The position numbers were made by a program, and so were the translations under genes. DNA of 6,794 nucleotides, taken from positions 1-6,794 of IMG/VR virus record IMGVR_UViG_2657245124_000002, one strand, 5' to 3'. The notes beneath the pieces were generated by a model. It saw only the letters and a program-made list of their open reading frames with translations, did not search any database and was not told the DNA's origin. Shown piece after piece: positions 1-6,794 of this stretch; position 1 is the first letter of the stretch; each line of letters starts with the position of its first letter. Source of the stretch: a virus (lineage: Duplodnaviria; Heunggongvirae; Uroviricota; Caudoviricetes).

Positions 1-2907
1 CAGCTGCAGAACAAAACGCTCTGGTCGTCATACACCGAAATCATCGATGTGAAACAGTGCTACCCGAACACGGCACTGGTCGGCGTACAGGTGGATTCGG
101 AGCAGTTCGGCAGCCAGCAGGTGAGCCGTAATTATCATCTGCGCGGGCGCATTCTGCAGGTGCCGTCGAACTATAACCCGCAGACGCGGCAATACAGCGG
201 TATCTGGGACGGAACGTTAAAACCGGCATACAGCAACAACATGGCCTGGTGTCTGTGGGATATGCTGACCCACCCGCGCTACGGCATGGGGAAACGTCTT
301 GGTGCGGCAGATGTGGATAAATGGGCGCTGTATGTCATCGGCCAGTACTGCGACCAGTCGGTGCCGGACGGTTTTGGCGGTACGGAGCCGCGCATCACCT
401 GTAATGCCTGGCTGGCCACACAACGTAAGGCGTGGGATGTGCTCAGTGATTTCTGCTCGGCGATGCGCTGTATGCCGGTATGGAACGGGCAGACGCTGAC
501 GTTCGTGCAGGACCGGCCGTCGGATAAGGTGTGGACCTATAACCGCAGTAATGTGGTGATGCCGGATGATGGCGCGCCGTTCCGCTACAGTTTCAGCGCC
601 CTGAAGGACCGCCATAATGCCGTTGAGGTGAACTGGATTGACCCGGATAACGGCTGGGAAACGGCAACAGAGCTTGTGGAGGACACGCAGGCCATTGCCC
701 GTTACGGTCGTAACGTCACGAAGATGGATGCCTTTGGCTGTACCAGTCGGGGGCAGGCACACCGCGCCGGGCTGTGGCTGATTAAAACAGAACTGCTGGA
801 AACGCAGACCGTGGATTTCAGCGTCGGCGCAGAAGGGCTTCGCCATGTACCGGGCGATGTTATTGAAATCTGTGATGATGACTATGCCGGTATCAGCACC
901 GGTGGTCGTGTGCTGGCGGTGAACAGCCAGACCCGGACGCTGACGCTCGACCGTGAAATCACGCTGCCATCCTCCGGTACCACGCTGATAAGCCTGGTTG
1001 ACGGAAGTGGCAATCCGGTCAGCGTGGAGGTTCAGTCCGTCACCGACGGCGTGAAGGTAAAAGTGAGCCGTGTTCCTGACGGCGTTGCTGAATACAGCGT
1101 ATGGGGGCTGAAGCTGCCGACGTTGCGCCAGCGCCTGTTCCGCTGCGTGAGTATCCGTGAGAACGATGACGGCACGTATGCCATCACCGCCGTGCAGCAT
1201 GTACCGGAAAAAGAGGCCATCGTGGATAACGGGGCGCACTTTGACGGCGAACAGAGTGGCACGGTGAATGGTGTCACGCCGCCAGCGGTGCAGCACCTGA
1301 CCGCCGAAGTCACCGCAGACAGCGGGGAATATCAGGTGCTGGCCCGCTGGGACACGCCGAAGGTGGTGAAGGGGGTGAGTTTCATGCTTCGCCTGACCGT
1401 GGCAGCGGATGACGGCAGTGAGCGGCTGGTCAGCACGGCCCGGACGACAGAAACCACATACCGCTTCAGGCAGCTGGCGCTGGGGAACTACAGGCTGACA
1501 GTCCGGGCGGTAAATGCGTGGGGGCAGCAGGGCGATCCGGCATCGGTATCGTTCCGGATTGCCGCACCTGCAGTGCCGTCGCGGATTGAGCTGACGCCGG
1601 GCTATTTTCAGATAACCGCCACGCCGTATCTTGCCGTTTATGATCCGACGGTACAGTTTGAGTTCTGGTTCTCGGAAAAACGGATTGCGGATATCAGGCA
1701 GGTTGAAACCACAGCCCGCTATCTTGGTACGGCGCTGTACTGGATAGCCGCCAGTATCAATATTAAGCCGGGCCATGATTATTATTTTTACGTTCGCAGT
1801 GTGAACACAGTCGGCAAATCGGCATTCGTGGAGGCTGTCGGTCGGGCGAGCGATGATGCGGAAGGTTACCTGGATTTTTTCAAAGGAGAAATCGGGAAAA
1901 CACATCTGGCCCAGGAGCTGTGGACGCAGATTGATAACGGTCAGCTTGCGCCGGACCTGGCTGAAATCAGGACGTCCATTACGAATGTCAGCAATGAAAT
2001 CACGCAGACCGTCAATAAAAAACTGGAAGACCAGAGTGCGGCAATCCAGCAGATACAGAAAGTTCAGGTTGATACAAATAATAACCTGAACAGCATGTGG
2101 GCCGTGAAACTGCAGCAGATGAAGGACGGACGCCTTTATATTGCGGGTATCGGAGCCGGTATTGGGAATACGCCAGCAGGTATGCAGAGTCAGGTGCTTC
2201 TGGCTGCTGACCGGATTGCGATGATTAATCCTGCGAATGGCAACACAAAGCCGATGTTTGTTGGTCAGGGCGATCAGATATTCATGAACGACGTGTTCCT
2301 GAAACGCCTGACAGCTCCGACCATTACCAGCGGCGGTAATCCTCCGGCATTTTCCCTGACACCGGACGGGCGGCTGACGGCGAAAAATGCCGATATCAGC
2401 GGTAACGTGAATGCGAACTCCGGGACGCTCAACAACGTCACGATTAACGAGAACTGTCGGGTTCTGGGAAAATTGTCCGCCAACCAGATTGAAGGCGATC
2501 TCGTTAAAACAGTGGGCAAAGCTTTCCCCCGGGACTCCCGTGCACCGGAGCGGTGGCCATCAGGGACCATTACCGTCAGGGTTTATGACGATCAGCCGTT
2601 TGACCGGCAGATTGTTATTCCGGCGGTGGCATTCAGCGGCGCTAAACATGAGAAAGAGCATACTGATATTTACTCCTCATGCCGTCTGATAGTGCGGAAA
2701 AACGGTGCTGAAATTTATAACCGTACCGCGCTGGATAATACGCTGATTTACAGTGGTGTTATTGATATGCCTGCCGGTCACGGTCACATGACGCTGGAGT
2801 TTTCGGTGTCAGCATGGCTGGTGAATAACTGGTATCCCACAGCAAGTATCAGCGATTTGCTGGTTGTGGTGATGAAGAAAGCCACCGCAGGCATCAGTAT
2901 CAGCTGA
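1..2907 (+). CDS. J: Phage tail-tip host-specificity protein J (lambda gpJ-like central fibre), 5'-partial; the gene begins upstream of the window
   Basis: Frame 1 is open from nt 1 to the TGA at 2905-2907. The translation matches lambda gpJ as recalled, e.g. [59 protein letters not shown]. Two fibronectin-III-like repeats lie at about aa 420-600 of the in-window product. The GTG at 49 used by the ORF track is internal, not the true start. Confidence 0.95.
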
Positions 2908-2925
2908 ATTTTATAACCCATATAC

Positions 2926-2952
2926 GGGCGCCAGAAATGGCGCCTTTTTTAT
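2926..2952 (+). terminator. Rho-independent terminator downstream of J (tJ-like)
   Basis: GGCGCC (2927-2932), loop AGAAAT, GGCGCC (2939-2944), then a T6 tract (2945-2950), 19 nt after the J stop. Confidence 0.7.
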
Positions 2953-2974
2953 TGCAGAAAAGCGAGAGGTAATT

Positions 2975-3406
2975 ATGCGTAAAGTTTGTGCAGCCATTTT
3001 GTCCGCAGTCATCTGTCAGTCCGTATCCGGTGCGCCTGCATGGGCGTCTGAATATCAGTCCACACTGAGCGCGGGGTATCTTCATGCCCGTACGAACGCT
3101 CCCGGCAGCGATAATCTGAACGGGATTAACGTGAAATACCGTTATGAGTTTACGGACGCGCTGGGGCTGATTACGTCCTTCAGTTATGCCAATGCTGAGG
3201 ATGAGCAAAAAACGCACTACAGCGATACCCGCTGGCATGAAGATTCCGTGCGTAACCGCTGGTTCAGCGTGATGGCGGGGCCGTCTGTACGCGTGAATGA
3301 ATGGTTCAGCGCGTATGCGATGGTGGGTGTGGCTTACAGCCGTGTGTCGACTTTCTCCGGGGATTATCTCCGCGTAACTATACAGCAAATAAACCAACAG
3401 GCCTGA
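2975..3406 (+). CDS. lom: Lom-family outer membrane beta-barrel protein (Ail/OmpX/PagC family), C-terminally truncated; probable pseudogene
   Basis: GAGAGG Shine-Dalgarno 6-11 nt upstream of the ATG at 2975. N-terminal signal peptide MRKVCAAILSAVICQSVSGAPAWA. Lom-like sequence runs to about ...[11 protein letters not shown] (near nt 3379), then 8 unrelated codons and a stop. The product is 143 aa against roughly 206 aa for lambda Lom (from memory). Confidence 0.8.
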   Translation: MRKVCAAILSAVICQSVSGAPAWASEYQSTLSAGYLHARTNAPGSDNLNGINVKYRYEFTDALGLITSFSYANAEDEQKTHYSDTRWHEDSVRNRWFSVMAGPSVRVNEWFSAYAMVGVAYSRVSTFSGDYLRVTIQQINQQA

Positions 3407-3927
3407 CAGATGGAACTGTATATGTAATTTACAGTTCGCACATTAAACCGACTGCTGCTGATGTTGGGGCGTTGTCATTATCTGGAGGTCAACTGAATGG
3501 TGCACTGGGTATCGGAACATCCAGTGCTCTTGGCGGTAATTCGATTGTATTGGGTGATAATGACACGGGCTTTAAACAAAATGGCGATGGTAATCTGGAT
3601 GTTTATGCTAATAACGTCCATGTTATGCGCTTTGTTTCCGGCGGCATTCAAAGTAATAAAACCATAAATATTACAGGGCGTGTTAACCCCTCGGATTACG
3701 GTAACTTTGATTCCCGTTATGTGAAAGATGTTCGACTTGGTTCACAGCAATATTATGGAGTGAACAACTGGCAAACATGGAATTTCCAGTGCCCTTCAGG
3801 TCATGTATTATCTGGTATTAATGTTCAGGATACAGGGTCTAACTCTGCCGATAATATAGCGGGCGTTTATTACAGACCCGTTCAAAAGTATATAAATGGC
3901 ACCTGGTATAATGTAGCGAGCGTTTAA
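3301..3927 (+). CDS. Side tail fibre C-terminal (receptor-binding) segment, copy 1; 5'-truncated fragment with fibre homology only from about nt 3380
   Basis: The translation from about 3380 ([63 protein letters not shown]...[11 protein letters not shown]) is paralogous to the minus-strand fibre segment at 5021-5950. The first 25 codons of the track ORF are lom DNA read out of frame, there is no Shine-Dalgarno at the ATG at 3301, and the TAA stop (3925-3927) sits 1 nt before the tfa ATG. Confidence 0.7.
3478..3740 (+). repeat. Left arm of a 263-bp inverted repeat inside the two tail-fibre variable segments
   Basis: Compared by eye with the reverse complement of 5187-5449: about 10 mismatches in 263 bp (about 96%), with a perfect run of roughly 110 bp at 3478-3586. 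Confidence 0.85.
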
Positions 3928-3928
3928 T

Positions 3929-4456
3929 ATGATGCACTTAAAGAACATAAAAGCGGGTAATGCTAAAACACTGGAACAGTATGAGTTAACAAAGAAACAC
4001 GGAGTTATCTGGCTTTACTCTGAGGACGGAAAAAACTGGTATGAGGAAGTGAAAAACTTTCAGCCAGACACCATAAAGATTGTTTACGATGAAAATAATA
4101 TTATTGTCGCCATCACCAGAGATGCCTCCACGCTTAATCCCGAAGGTTTTAGCGTCGTCGAGGTTCCCGATATAACGGCCAATCGTCGGACCGATGATTC
4201 CGGTAAGTGGATGTTTAAGGACGGAGCTGTGGTTAAACGGATTTATACGGCTGACGAACAGCAACAACAGGCCGAATCACAAAAGGCCGCATTGCTTTCC
4301 GAAGCTGAATCAGTCATCCAGCCGCTGGAACGCGCTGTCAGGCTGAATATGGCAACAGACGAGGAACGCACACGACTGGAAGCATGGGAACGCTACAGTG
4401 TTCTGGTCAGCCGTGTGGATACGGCAAATCCTGAATGGCCACAAAAGCCTGAATAA
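3929..4456 (+). CDS. tfa: Tail fibre assembly protein (Tfa / Mu U-like chaperone), cognate to fibre copy 1
   Basis: 175-aa ORF starting 1 nt after the fibre stop. The N-terminus [40 protein letters not shown] is typical of Tfa chaperones, and the protein is a paralogue of the 4485-5018 product. Confidence 0.85.
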
Positions 4457-4461
4457 AAATT

Positions 4462-4481
4462 AAGGCCCGATAGCGGGCCTT
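4462..4481. terminator. Hairpin between the convergent tfa genes; candidate bidirectional terminator
   Basis: Perfect 8-bp stem AAGGCCCG (4462-4469) / CGGGCCTT (4474-4481) with loop ATAG. An A-rich tract to its left gives a U-tract for minus-strand transcripts; the plus-strand T tract is weak. Confidence 0.5.
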
Positions 4482-4484
4482 CTC

Positions 4485-5018
4485 TCATTCTGGTTGTTCT
4501 GGAAACGTTACTGGCAGGCTGGAGGTGTCTGTGGATTCAACCTTCTGCGCATAGAGCATCCACTCGGTTAATTTTTGTTTATTCTCATCGGAAATGATGC
4601 CCAGCCGTAGCTGAGAGTCCCACAGCTGGGTTTTATCCCTGACGAGCTGCAGCAGGCTCTGCTTTTCATTTTCCGCTTGTTGCCTTTGCTCTTCCTCGGT
4701 ATAAGTTCGCTTTATCACCGCACCATCTTTGAACATCCAGTTGCCCGAAATATCAGCCCGGCGATTTGCTGTAATATCAGGCAACTCAACGACACTTAAA
4801 CCTTCTGGATTAATTGCTGATACATCCTTGTCTATAGCAATAATTATTCCCTCAACTGTGTAAGCCAGTTTTATTGTATCCTCCTGAAAGTTTTTTAATT
4901 CCTCATACCAATTTTTTCCATCTTCGGACCATAACCAGATAACATCAAAATTCTTTGTTAGCTGGTATTGTTCAACGGTTTTTGGATTACCTGCGACAAT
5001 GTTTTTTAAATGCTGCAT
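4485..5018 (-). CDS. tfa: Tail fibre assembly protein (Tfa / Mu U'-like chaperone), cognate to fibre copy 2
   Basis: 177-aa ORF with ATG at 5018-5016, 2 nt after the stop of the minus-strand fibre segment and preceded by an AGGT Shine-Dalgarno. N-terminus [40 protein letters not shown]. Confidence 0.85.
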
Positions 5019-5020
5019 GA

Positions 5021-5950
5021 TTATACCTGCGATACGTTATACCATGTTCCGTTAATTAACTTTTGTATTGGTCTGAATACTGCCGGATCATCACCATCGA
5101 CTTCACCGATAATACCAAGCCCCGTGATTACATGGCCTGATTTTTCATACATCACGCCTTTCTTCATGGTCTGAACAACTCGTGTGCCAAGTCTGACATC
5201 TCTCACATAGCGGGAATCAAAGTTACCGTAATCCGAGGGATTAACACGTCCCGTAATATTTATGGTTTTATTACTTTGAATGCTTCCGGAGACAAAGCGC
5301 ATAACATGGACGTTATTAGCATAAACATCCAGATTACCATCGCCATTTTGTTTAAAGCCCGTGTCATTATCACCCAATACAATCGAATTACCGCCAAGAG
5401 CACTGGATGTTCCGATACCCAGTGCACCATTCAGTTGACCTCCAGATAACGGCAGTGCACCAACATCTCCTGCTGAAGGTTTTCTGGTGGTGGTGTAAAA
5501 TTCGGACCAGTCGGCTTCAAAACCATAACCATCACGGGCTGAACGATAAAAAATACCGCCATTTTTATAATTAATCCGAAACTGAGCTGCAGGACAACTT
5601 CCTTCTCCCATATAAAAATGAATAATTAACGTTGATGCACCACTAATAGTTGCGTTATAGGCTCCGCTACTCCAGTTCCATCCAACTGCTTTATCATTCT
5701 CAACGGTGCTTCCTGTTTTCCCTAAGGCAAACGCACCAACATGACTTGCTTTTAATGTGATATCGGAGGAACCATCAAAAGCCACATTGCTTATTTTCCT
5801 GGCAGTTTTTAATTTTGCAGCTGTAGAAGCATTGCCGGATAGTTCACCAGAAAGGCCACCGCTGAATGTTTGTCGATTAGTCCAGGTATTCGCTGTACTG
5901 AGTAACGGTATTTTCTCCCCGCTTGTGCCGAGTTCTCGTAAACCGAGGTT
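5021..5950 (-). CDS. Side tail fibre variable C-terminal segment, copy 2 (silent-orientation copy with no start codon of its own; the track calls 5021-5785 from an internal GTG)
   Basis: The minus-strand frame is open from 5950 to the TAA at 5023-5021 (translated by hand: [66 protein letters not shown]...). An in-frame TAA lies immediately outside the crossover site (5953-5951), as expected for a segment that is expressed only after inversion fuses it to a constant fibre N-terminus. Confidence 0.8.
5187..5449 (-). repeat. Right arm of the 263-bp inverted repeat (partner of 3478-3740)
   Basis: The reverse complement of 5187-5449 aligns base for base with 3478-3740. Both arms encode [81 protein letters not shown]. 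Confidence 0.85.
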
Positions 5951-5958
5951 TTAGATAA
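5933..5958. other. Site-specific inversion crossover site (hix/gix/pix-like, 26 bp)
   Basis: TTCTCGTAAACC-GA-GGTTTTAGATAA: two imperfect inverted 12-bp half-sites around a 2-bp core. The right half reads TTATCTAAAACC on the other strand, close to the recalled TTATCAAAAACC half-site consensus. It sits 55 bp upstream of the invertase start and inside the fibre copy 2 reading frame. Confidence 0.65.
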
Positions 5959-6012
5959 TGGCGGTTTCTGGCCTGCATGGAATGATTTGTGCTTTTGGAC
6001 GGGAGATTCAGC

Positions 6013-6279
6013 GTGCTGATTGGCTATGTAAGGGTATCAACAAATGACCAGAATACAGATCTGCAACGAAACGCTCTTGTTTGTGCAGGATATGAACAAA
6101 TATTTGAAGATAAATTAAGCGGAACAAGGACAGGCCGACCTGGATTAAAATGTGCTTTAAAGCGCCTTCAAAAAGGTGACGCACTGGTTGTCTGAAAACT
6201 GGACTGACTGGGTCACTGTATGCGGCATCTTGTCGTGCTGGTGGTGGAAGCCTAGAAAAAGTATCGGGTGTTGCTGAAC
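6013..6279 (+). pseudogene. pin: Serine DNA invertase of the Pin/Gin/Cin/Hin family, inactivated by in-frame stops and truncated by an IS insertion
   Basis: GGGAGA Shine-Dalgarno, then GTG at 6013. The product VLIGYVRVSTNDQNTDLQRNALVCAGYEQIFEDKLSGTRTGRPGLKCALKRLQKGDALVV carries the resolvase-type catalytic N-terminus. The frame hits TGA at 6193-6195, TGA at 6205-6207 and TAG at 6253-6255, while homology continues between them (KLD*LGHCMRHLVVLVVEA*). Homology ends at the IS boundary at 6280. Confidence 0.85.

Positions 6280-6794
<515 letters not shown>

What the first reader, a model, noticed from the sequence alone, without database searches (positions are those of the whole stretch)
3478..5449. 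Near-identical 263-bp inverted repeat inside the two fibre segments brackets the tip-plus-tfa cassettes
The arms at 3478-3740 and 5187-5449 are about 96% identical in inverted orientation, with a perfect run of about 110 bp, while the coding sequence on either side of them is much more diverged. The roughly 1.45 kb between the arms holds exactly the two variable fibre tips and their two tfa genes. RecA-dependent recombination between the arms would invert that core and swap tip plus chaperone as a unit, independently of the dead site-specific system. Such identity inside otherwise diverged paralogues also implies recent gene conversion or selection on the DNA itself.
Basis: seen in the sequence. 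Interest (0 to 1): 0.6.

Follow-up and report, generated by a model that had tools for sequence, protein, structure and literature searches.

The report
Shared shaft module of two alternative tail-fibre genes
The inverted repeat is real, but it is simply the same conserved 87-codon fibre "shaft" module carried by both alternative tail-fibre ends of a decayed, P1-like invertible prophage cassette, so it is an ordinary feature rather than a new switch.

Summary
Arms 3478-3740 and 5187-5449 match at 253/263 (96.2%), with a 158-bp perfect run, and they bracket exactly two fibre tips and two tfa genes.

The arms are two copies of an optional 87-codon fibre module, sitting between a proximal domain and the receptor-binding tip. 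They lie inside the remnant of a Pin/Cin-type invertible tail-fibre cassette. That cassette has one crossover site left (5933-5958), an invertase cut to 68 aa, an adjacent IS3-family element, and a fibre N-terminus replaced by a lom|fibre junction at 3379/3380.

In the closest intact relatives the repeat runs from the crossover site inward: 739 bp perfect in one genome. I re-measured phage P1's C segment, which has the same layout (636 bp, 98.3%).

The module is a widely shared DNA block. Forty-six full-length copies gave a median between-locus identity of 93.9%, and upstream and downstream flank types are shuffled across it. The window's 96.2% is therefore unexceptional.

Relatives show gene conversion between paired arms, for example a plasmid pair at 98.5% against at most 97.7% to any other arm. 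RecA-mediated inversion of the core is plausible but not shown, and it could not restore a working fibre here. Low interest; a new member of a known kind.

The parts
3478..3740 (+). Left arm: an 87-codon conserved fibre module ([11 protein letters not shown]...[13 protein letters not shown]...RYVKDVRL) in fibre fragment X
   Evidence: 253/263 identical to the right arm, with a 158-bp perfect run. Weak match to Pfam gp37_trimer. Its twin in Y aligns to phage S16 gp37 (6f45).
5187..5449 (-). Right arm: the same module in fibre segment Y
   Evidence: Absent from Mu S' (8ju3), which joins the proximal domain directly to the tip.
3380..3477 (+). Remnant of a different proximal fibre module ('Xp2') just upstream of the left arm
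   Evidence: 3379-3741 is 97.0% identical and collinear with the S gene of a P1-like plasmid (L123 6005-6367). It is only about 57% identical to the Y copy (26 differences in the last 60 nt).
2975..3379 (+). lom gene truncated after about 135 codons; the junction to the fibre fragment is at 3379/3380
   Evidence: Pfam Ail_Lom covers profile positions 1-140 of 199. Homology to intact lom stops at 3379 and fibre homology starts at 3380, with no microhomology.
3741..3927 (+). Receptor-binding tip X (62 aa)
   Evidence: ORF list. 49% identical to tip Y over the last 43 aa only.
3929..4456 (+). tfaX, tail fibre assembly chaperone
   Evidence: Pfam Caudo_TAP, E = 8e-38.
4462..4481 (.). GC-rich hairpin between the two convergent tfa genes (terminator-like)
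4485..5018 (-). tfaY, tail fibre assembly chaperone
   Evidence: Pfam Caudo_TAP, E = 4e-34. 56% identical to TfaX.
5021..5186 (-). Receptor-binding tip Y (55 aa)
   Evidence: Aligns to the tips of Mu S and S' (5yvq, 8ju3).
5450..5932 (-). Proximal domain of variable fibre segment Y ('Yp'), running from the crossover site to the arm
   Evidence: Pfam gp37_C. Strong match to Mu S' residues 323-417. In L001 this block is duplicated on both sides and forms part of the 739-bp perfect repeat.
5933..5958 (.). The single remaining Din-type crossover site (pix/gix/cix-like): TTCTCGTAAACCGAGGTTTTAGATAA
   Evidence: The only match in the window to TTMTCNNAAACCNNGGTTTNNGAKAA at up to 3 mismatches; 0.01 expected by chance.
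5989..6203 (+). Serine invertase (Pin-like) N-terminal fragment; the ORF is 68 aa and homology to intact invertases ends at 6203
   Evidence: Pfam Resolvase, E = 6e-14. 97% identical to an intact gene up to 6203; the truncation and the next 76 bp are shared with L001.
6275..6794 (-). IS3-family insertion sequence (transposase orfB at 6322-6768), running off the contig end
   Evidence: rve domains. 99% matches annotated as 'IS3 family transposase', with thousands of copies in E. coli.

Best explanation
The two arms are the two copies of one conserved 87-codon fibre module. It sits between a proximal domain and the receptor-binding tip in both alternative fibre C-termini of a Pin/Cin-type invertible tail-fibre cassette (fibre end plus tfa, twice, head to head).

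In intact relatives the two alternative fibre ends share everything from the recombinase crossover site up to the tip. The invertible segment then ends in long, near-perfect inverted repeats, as in the P1 C segment. In this window the left copy has a different proximal module and is cut off by a lom|fibre junction, so only the inner 263 bp remain repeated.

Two things account for the DNA-level identity:
- The module circulates as a highly conserved DNA block among E. coli phages and acts as a joint across which proximal parts and tips are reassorted by homologous recombination.
- Paired copies within one locus are homogenised by gene conversion.

Shown here: the anatomy, the longer repeat in relatives, the pool-wide conservation, the reassortment of flanks, and within-locus homogenisation in relatives.

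Inferred: the exchanges are RecA-type or phage-recombinase homologous recombination, and a crossover between the window's arms could still flip the 1.45-kb core. In this decayed remnant such a flip would have no effect on fibre function.
For: Anatomy:
- Two fibre ends, two Caudo_TAP genes, a Resolvase fragment and a truncated Lom.
- One crossover site, at 5933-5958.

Longer repeat in relatives:
- L001 (99.1% identical to window 3460-5964) has X and Y copies perfectly identical from -500 to +238 relative to the arm start, which is 739 bp beginning inside the crossover site.
- L130 has a single mismatch over the same span.
- The P1 C segment, re-measured, has 636 bp at 98.3% abutting cixL and cixR.
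- L002 has a 521-bp repeat at 99.2% from the crossover site that ends 8 bp into the arm.

The arm is an optional module:
- Mu S' (8ju3) aligns to Y residues 17-111 and 189-252 and skips the arm. The arm aligns to S16 gp37.
- The second fibres of L002 and L020 lack it.

Pool-wide conservation:
- A degenerate scan for [13 protein letters not shown] found at least 119 viral loci.
- 46 full-length arms are 91-99% identical to the window arm. The median between-locus identity is 93.9%.

Reassortment:
- 3 upstream and 4 downstream flank types occur in 8 of 12 possible combinations, and all four 'gametes' are present for two pairs of types.
- Several plasmid hits to an independent locus begin exactly at the arm start.

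Conversion:
- The two arms of plasmid pOkiPb01714_2 are 98.5% identical to each other but at most 97.7% to any other arm, and 91-94% to the window, L001 and L130 arms.
- At arm positions 165/166, L001 has AA in both arms and L130 has CG in both.
Against: - In the window itself, each arm is closer to an orthologue in another genome (99.2% and 98.9%) than to its partner (96.2%). Intralocus conversion is therefore not demonstrated for this locus.
- Three of the four double-arm loci (window, L001, L130) belong to one lineage. Independent support for concerted evolution rests mainly on one plasmid.
- Long repeats are not universal in such cassettes. The proximal repeat is only 83.5% in L003 and about 77% in L055 and L128. 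The e14 P segment has no long repeat at all.
- No crossover product was observed directly.
- The contig comes from a draft assembly.
Confidence: 0.8

Rival explanations
1. One reading: the arms act as a working RecA-dependent back-up switch. It flips the 1.45-kb core and swaps tip plus chaperone as a unit, replacing the dead invertase system.
For: - 263 bp at 96% with a 158-bp perfect block is well above the minimal length that RecA-dependent recombination needs in E. coli (general knowledge).
- The arms are now the only inverted homology that brackets the core, apart from the 73% tfa N-terminal repeat inside it.
- The window and L001/L130 share the same invertase truncation yet carry the segment in opposite orientation relative to it. 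At least one inversion therefore seems to have followed the loss of the cis invertase.
- The two linkages that a crossover between the window's arms would produce, Xp2-arm-Ytip and Yp-arm-Xtip, both exist in other genomes.
Against: - No flipped version of this locus was found. The lom|fibre junction gave no hit in the genome, metagenome or viral collections.
- Fragment X has no fibre N-terminus or crossover site upstream, and it is out of frame with lom. No orientation yields a functional fibre.
- Pin-family invertases from other prophages act in trans on such segments (PMC12529663). That can explain the orientation difference, because the ancestor still had two sites.
- All six complete-genome copies of the L001-type locus, with its 739-bp perfect repeat, share one orientation.
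Confidence: 0.12
2. The identity of the window's two arms reflects a recent gene conversion, or a patch repair, between them in this very locus.
For: - There is a sharp step from about 60% identity to a 158-bp perfect block exactly at 3478.
- Both window arms carry A at arm position 9, while both arms of L001 and of L130, and the single arm of L002, carry T.
- Conversion is evident in the related loci L001, L130 and the plasmid.
Against: - The first 158 bp form a haplotype shared by nearly the whole clade of loci, whatever the tip type.
- 8-9% of between-locus pairs also show perfect runs of 158 bp or more.
- The sharp left edge coincides with a module boundary that recurs in unrelated loci.
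- The 10 differences are mostly tip-type-specific alleles kept from the respective orthologues.
Confidence: 0.3
3. The DNA itself is under selection. For example, the arms might hold a secondary recombinase crossover site, as in the multi-site Min and shufflon systems, or a structured RNA or regulatory element.
For: Third-codon positions are unusually conserved across the pool: 82-98% identical to the window arm.
Against: - No pix-like site in the arms at up to 3 mismatches.
- No Rfam family in the window.
- No Chi site in the arms; the only one is at 6237.
- More distant fibres encode the same [13 protein letters not shown] peptide with only 70-80% DNA identity, so the protein does not require this DNA sequence. 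The tight cluster is most simply explained by recent horizontal spread.
Confidence: 0.03
4. Assembly artefact: a short-read assembler joined unrelated fibre genes through the repeated block.
For: The window is a whole 6.8-kb contig of a draft assembly that ends in repeated elements (J and an IS). The perfect repeat of 158 bp is long compared with short-read k-mers.
Against: - The stretch 3460-5964, including both arms and the core, is collinear at 99.1% with complete chromosomes.
- 3379-3741 is collinear with a P1-like S gene.
- The lom|fibre junction shows no shared sequence that a graph mis-join would need.
Confidence: 0.05

Closest known systems
Invertible C segment of phage P1 (Cin/cix), with its ~0.6-kb inverted repeats
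   Same: - Two head-to-head sets of fibre variable end plus tfa-type chaperone next to a serine invertase.
- Long, near-identical inverted repeats inside the segment encode the part common to both alternative fibre ends.
- Re-measured here: P1 has 636 bp at 98.3% starting at cixL and cixR. The window's closest relative has 739 bp perfect starting at its crossover site.
- The left arm with its upstream 100 bp is 97% identical to the S gene of a P1-like plasmid.
   Different: - In the window the repeat no longer reaches a crossover site. The right arm starts 483 bp inside the single site, and the left site is gone.
- The invertase is truncated.
- The cassette sits in a lambdoid J-lom context rather than in P1.
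- P1's own repeat is made of a different sequence block. The arm module gave no hit in P1.
P segment of the cryptic prophage e14 (PinE) in E. coli K-12, and the G segment of Mu
   Same: - The same kind of cassette: stf end plus tfa in both orientations, beside a Pin-family invertase.
- A defective prophage remnant lacking the fibre N-terminus.
- The window's invertase fragment is 78% identical in DNA to pinE.
- Pin-family enzymes act in trans on such segments (PMC12529663).
   Different: - The e14 segment has only the short crossover sites. It has no long inverted repeat and no copy of the arm module.
- The Mu S' fibre joins the proximal domain directly to the tip without the arm.
Mosaic tail-fibre genes with conserved blocks that serve as exchange points (Haggard-Ljungquist 1992; Sandmeier 1992, 1994, as cited in PMC3945230)
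   Same: The arm behaves as such a block. It is 91-99% identical across P2-like, lambdoid, P1-like and phage-plasmid fibres, its flanking modules are reassorted, and breakpoints recur at its first base.
   Different: Those papers were not readable here, so I did not check whether this exact block is one of their named boxes.
Multi-site inversion systems (Min of p15B, shufflons, the three-repeat P2-like prophage locus of EPEC; PMC4272514)
   Same: With both crossover sites and arms present, as in plasmid pOkiPb01714_2, four fibre isoforms are conceivable. This parallels a four-state shufflon.
   Different: Those systems use three or more recombinase sites. Here the inner repeat contains no recombinase site, so it would have to rely on general homologous recombination.

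Membership tests
Din-family (Gin/Cin/Pin/Hin) invertible tail-fibre segment | Serine invertase gene adjacent to the segment | tested here: met
   Resolvase N-terminal domain, E = 6e-14, and 97% identity to an intact gene up to 6203. Only a 68-aa fragment remains, so it is a remnant and not a working gene.
Din-family (Gin/Cin/Pin/Hin) invertible tail-fibre segment | Two inverted 26-bp crossover sites bounding the segment | tested here: not met
   Only one site, at 5933-5958. The left one is absent from the window. Both are present in the relatives L001 and plasmid pOkiPb01714_2.
Din-family (Gin/Cin/Pin/Hin) invertible tail-fibre segment | Two oppositely oriented sets of fibre variable end plus tfa chaperone | tested here: met
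   ORFs 3301/3472-3927 and 3929-4456 on the + strand; 4485-5018 and 5021-5785 on the - strand. Two Caudo_TAP matches.
Din-family (Gin/Cin/Pin/Hin) invertible tail-fibre segment | Constant fibre N-terminal part outside the segment that reads across a crossover site | tested here: not met
   lom is joined directly to the middle of fibre fragment X at 3379/3380. The N-terminal fibre gene is present in L001 and L130.
Din-family (Gin/Cin/Pin/Hin) invertible tail-fibre segment | Fis-dependent enhancer in the 5' part of the invertase gene | not tested
   Annotated in P1 cin. Not examined in the window.
P1 C-segment-type long terminal inverted repeats | The repeat starts at the crossover sites | tested here: not met
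   In the window the right arm begins 483 bp inside the site, and there is no left site. The feature is met in L001 and L130 (739 bp), L002 (521 bp) and P1 (636 bp).
P1 C-segment-type long terminal inverted repeats | The repeat encodes the part shared by both alternative fibre ends, at near-identical DNA level | tested here: met
   96.2% DNA identity and 85/87 aa identical between the arms, both in frame in the two fibre ORFs.
Multi-site inversion system (Min / shufflon type) | Three or more recombinase crossover sites, including sites inside the coding repeats | tested here: not met
   A single consensus match in the window, and none in the arms at up to 3 mismatches.
T4 gp37-like fibre module (Pfam PF20744 gp37_trimer) | Score above Pfam's gathering cut-off | tested here: inconclusive
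   20.1 and 19.3 bits against a cut-off of 21.7. Supporting match to S16 gp37 distal subunit 6f45 residues 21-93, E = 3.6e-6.

The most novel reading that the evidence does not exclude
In intact elements that have both the recombinase sites and an internal arm repeat with different proximal modules on either side (for example the phage-plasmid pOkiPb01714_2), homologous recombination at the arms works as a second, recombinase-independent layer of fibre shuffling. It would turn a two-state switch into four fibre isoforms (two proximal domains times two tips) within one clone. In remnants such as this window it would keep flipping the tip-plus-chaperone core after the invertase is lost.
Probability: 0.2. 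Interest if true: 0.5.

Novelty: new member of a known kind. Interest (0 to 1): 0.22.

Why it matters
The finding shows where host-range modules of temperate E. coli phages are cut and pasted. One 263-bp block serves as a common joint between proximal fibre domains and receptor-binding tips in P2-like, lambdoid, P1-like and phage-plasmid backgrounds. Copies paired within one locus become homogenised.

That is useful for annotating and engineering fibres, since the arm edges are natural splice points. It also matters for interpreting short-read assemblies of prophage fibre regions. It does not reveal a new mechanism. In this window the cassette is a decayed remnant, so even a real inversion would have no obvious phenotype.

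Tried and rejected
1. Secondary recombinase site in the arms. A consensus scan at up to 3 mismatches finds only the site at 5933-5958. The AAAACCATAAATATTAC stretch in the arm matches only one half-site by eye. Rejected.

2. RNA element. Rfam at gathering thresholds finds nothing in the window.

3. Chi-driven hotspot. The only Chi is at 6237, outside the arms.

4. The decisive test: other sequences that share the unique lom|fibre junction but carry a flipped core. A 40-nt pattern was scanned in genome contigs and metagenome contigs, and a 21-nt pattern in genome contigs, metagenome contigs and viral contigs. All gave 0 hits. No complete E. coli genome covers 80% or more of window 2900-6300.

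5. Close relatives of plasmid pOkiPb01714_2, to look for arm-mediated isomers. None in PLSDB covers 80% or more.

6. SNPs to tell invertase-mediated from homologous inversion between the window and L001. The two repeat copies in L001 are identical over 739 bp, so no site is informative.

7. e14 as the direct homologue. It has no long repeat and no arm.

8. Original P1, e14 and p15B papers (PMC555351, PMC554175, PMC206102, PMC553230). Not held. The P1 repeat was therefore re-measured from AF234172 instead.

9. Source strain identity. No paper mentions the accession. J-lom is 97% identical to E. coli O111:H2-type prophages, but that locus is organised differently.
Full report
**Observation.** An ungapped comparison of 3478-3740 with the reverse complement of 5187-5449 gives 253/263 identical bases (96.2%). 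The repeat finder extends the pair to 318 nt at 90%. Apart from the 159-nt, 73% repeat formed by the two tfa N-termini (I2), no other inverted repeat in the window exceeds 24 nt. Identity drops to 57-63% just upstream and to 13-37% downstream. Third codon positions are identical at 80/88 in the arms and 8/20 in the 60 nt upstream. The 1446 bp between the arms hold tip X (3741-3927), tfaX (3929-4456), a hairpin (4462-4481), tfaY (4485-5018, -) and tip Y (5021-5186, -).

**Context in the window.**
- A lambda-J-like gene at 49-2907.
- lom from 2975, matching the Ail_Lom profile only to position 140 of 199.
- Homology to intact J-lom stops at 3379. Homology to a fibre gene starts at 3380, with no shared bases at the joint.
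- To the right of segment Y lies one perfect Din-type crossover site, TTCTCGTAAACCGAGGTTTTAGATAA, at 5933-5958. It is the only match in the window at up to 3 mismatches.
- Next comes a Resolvase-family ORF of 68 aa. Its similarity to intact invertases ends at 6203.
- An IS3-family element runs from about 6275 to the contig end.

The window is an entire contig of a draft assembly (LIVH01000067.1, GCA_001420045.1).

**What the arms are.** They encode 87 residues: [55 protein letters not shown](G/S)[26 protein letters not shown](K/R)DVRL.
- In a search of solved structures, the Mu S' fibre (8ju3) aligns strongly to Y residues 17-111 (the proximal domain) and then to 189-252 (the tip). It skips the arm entirely.
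- The arm itself aligns to the distal long-tail-fibre subunit of phage S16 (6f45, E = 3.6e-6). It scores just below threshold against Pfam gp37_trimer.
- The arm is therefore a discrete, optional structural module inserted between the proximal domain and the tip. In agreement, the second fibre of several related cassettes lacks it (L002, L020).

**Relatives show the full architecture.**
- The best complete-genome match, L001 (NZ_OZ040035), is 99.1% identical to window 3460-5964. It lies in a J-lom-stf lambdoid prophage.
- In L001 the X and Y fibre ends are perfectly identical from position -500 to +238 relative to the arm start. That is 739 bp beginning inside the crossover site and ending where the tips diverge. 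L130 (NCTC 86) has one mismatch over the same span.
- This is the architecture of the P1 C segment. I re-measured it from AF234172: 636 bp at 98.3%, abutting the annotated cixL and cixR.
- A P2-like prophage with an intact invertase (L002) has a 521-bp, 99.2% repeat from the crossover site that stops 8 bp into the arm.
- The e14 P segment of K-12 has no long repeat and no arm.

The window's arms are the inner portion of a P1-type long inverted repeat. The outer portion is missing on the left because 3379-3741 follows a different fibre variant (97.0% to the S gene of a P1-like plasmid, L123). That variant is in turn cut off at the lom junction.

**Is the identity special?**
- A degenerate scan for DNA encoding [13 protein letters not shown] found at least 119 viral loci. 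Their DNA identity to the arm ranges from about 70% to 99%, so the protein does not demand this DNA sequence.
- Within E. coli-type phages, however, the block is tightly conserved. Forty-six full-length copies are 91-99% identical to the window arm, and 82-98% identical at third codon positions.
- The median between-locus identity is 93.9%. Some 22-24% of between-locus pairs reach 96.2%, and 8-9% have perfect runs of 158 bp or more.
- Each window arm has a closer orthologue elsewhere than its own partner. X is 99.2% identical to L130_X and Y is 98.9% identical to L019.

The window's 96.2% therefore does not by itself call for a recent event in this locus.

**Evidence for recombination at the arms.**
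- Reassortment. With 150-nt flanks, the 46 arms have 3 upstream and 4 downstream flank types, in 8 of 12 possible combinations. All four combinations are present for two pairs of types. Both linkages that a crossover between the window's arms would produce, Xp2-arm-Ytip and Yp-arm-Xtip, exist in other genomes. The first base of the arm is a recurrent breakpoint: the L002 repeat ends there, the window repeat starts there, and several plasmid hits to an independent locus start there.
- Homogenisation within loci. Only 7 records among 5426 complete E. coli genomes carry both arms with X and Y tips. One of them, plasmid pOkiPb01714_2, is an independent locus with an intact invertase. Its proximal modules differ on the two sides, so it has an internal-only repeat like the window. 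Its arms are 98.5% identical to each other, with a run of 241. They are at most 97.7% identical to any other arm, and 91-94% to the window, L001 and L130 arms.
- A second sign of homogenisation. L001 has AA at arm positions 165/166 in both arms, L130 has CG in both, and the window has CG in X and AA in Y.

These patterns are what gene conversion between paired arms produces. Three of the four double-arm loci are one lineage, so independent support rests mainly on the plasmid.

**Crossover (inversion).**
- The arms are long enough for RecA-dependent exchange. This rests on general knowledge of minimal homology in E. coli and was not tested here.
- A crossover would flip 3741-5186. I found no flipped copy. 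The unique lom|fibre junction has no other occurrence in the genome, metagenome or viral collections.
- One suggestive fact remains. The window and L001/L130 share the same invertase truncation plus 76 bp beyond it, yet they carry the segment in opposite orientation relative to it. An inversion therefore seems to have followed the loss of the cis invertase.
- It could have gone through the long repeats by homologous recombination. It could equally have gone through the two crossover sites, using a Pin-family enzyme from another prophage, which is known to act in trans (PMC12529663). The repeat copies are identical, so no SNP discriminates between the routes.
- All six complete-genome copies of the L001-type locus share one orientation, which argues against frequent flipping.
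- In the window, fragment X lacks a fibre N-terminus and is out of frame with lom. No orientation gives a working fibre.

**Rejected alternatives.**
- No recombinase-like site in the arms.
- No Rfam family in the window.
- No Chi site in the arms.
- An assembly artefact is unlikely, because both arm contexts are collinear with complete genomes and the lom junction has no shared k-mer.

**Verdict.** This is a real repeat correctly described, with an ordinary explanation. It is the shared module of the two alternative fibre ends of a P1-C-type invertible cassette, seen here in a decayed lambdoid remnant. It is a new member of a known kind and of low interest. The residual novel possibility is that, in intact elements, internal arms add a recombinase-independent layer of tip shuffling that gives four fibre states. 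That is testable by long-read population sequencing but is unsupported so far.

Noticed in passing
window 1-6794: The window is the whole of a 6794-bp contig (LIVH01000067.1, assembly GCA_001420045.1). It is bounded by a multi-copy J gene on the left and an IS3-family element on the right. These are typical short-read contig breaks, and the same contig is recorded in 2 samples.
   Followed up: partly
window 3379/3380: lom is joined to the middle of a fibre gene with no microhomology. The join removed the lom 3' end, the whole fibre N-terminal part, the left crossover site and most of the proximal fibre domain. The 208-aa ORF 3301-3927 starts inside lom in another frame and is probably not a real gene.
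   Followed up: yes
window 5989-6279; L001 5189-5479: The invertase truncation at 6203 and the following 76 bp are shared with complete genomes (L001, L130). In L001 that following stretch is annotated as a partial tail fibre assembly gene. The fibre segment has the opposite orientation relative to this dead invertase in those genomes, so an inversion seems to have happened after the cis invertase was lost.
   Followed up: partly
L001 5519-6257 and 7752-8490 (NZ_OZ040035.1): A 739-bp perfectly identical inverted repeat runs from inside the crossover site to the start of the fibre tips. It is longer and cleaner than the classical 0.6-kb repeats of P1 (636 bp at 98.3% in AF234172).
   Followed up: yes
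L127/L131 (plasmid pOkiPb01714_2, NZ_AP042689.1): A 50-kb phage-plasmid with an intact invertase has an internal-only arm repeat: 98.5% identity, a run of 241 bp, and different proximal modules on the two sides. It is a good experimental system for testing four-state fibre shuffling.
   Followed up: partly
L037 (IMGVR_UViG_2541047879_000004) 5581-12060: The invertase fragment lies about 4 kb beyond the second tfa gene. The region between may hold additional fibre cassettes, as in a multi-segment arrangement like p15B Min.
   Followed up: no
L083 (IMGVR_UViG_2690316161_000025) 2403-2806 and 10523-10926: Two direct copies of a diverged arm-like block lie about 8 kb apart on one viral contig. This is either a duplicated fibre region or an assembly repeat.
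   Followed up: no
L003 and L128 (P2-like prophages): The proximal inverted repeat next to the crossover sites is only 83.5% (L003) or about 77% (L128, L055) identical, against 99.2% in L002, although all carry intact invertase genes. Long identical repeats are therefore not required by the invertase.
   Followed up: partly
window 6237-6244: A single Chi site (GCTGGTGG) lies in the short stretch between the invertase fragment and the IS element. There are none elsewhere in the window.
   Followed up: no
window 3929-4087 / 4860-5018: A second, weaker inverted repeat (159 nt, 73%) is formed by the conserved N-terminal parts of the two tfa genes. The proteins are 56% identical overall.
   Followed up: yes
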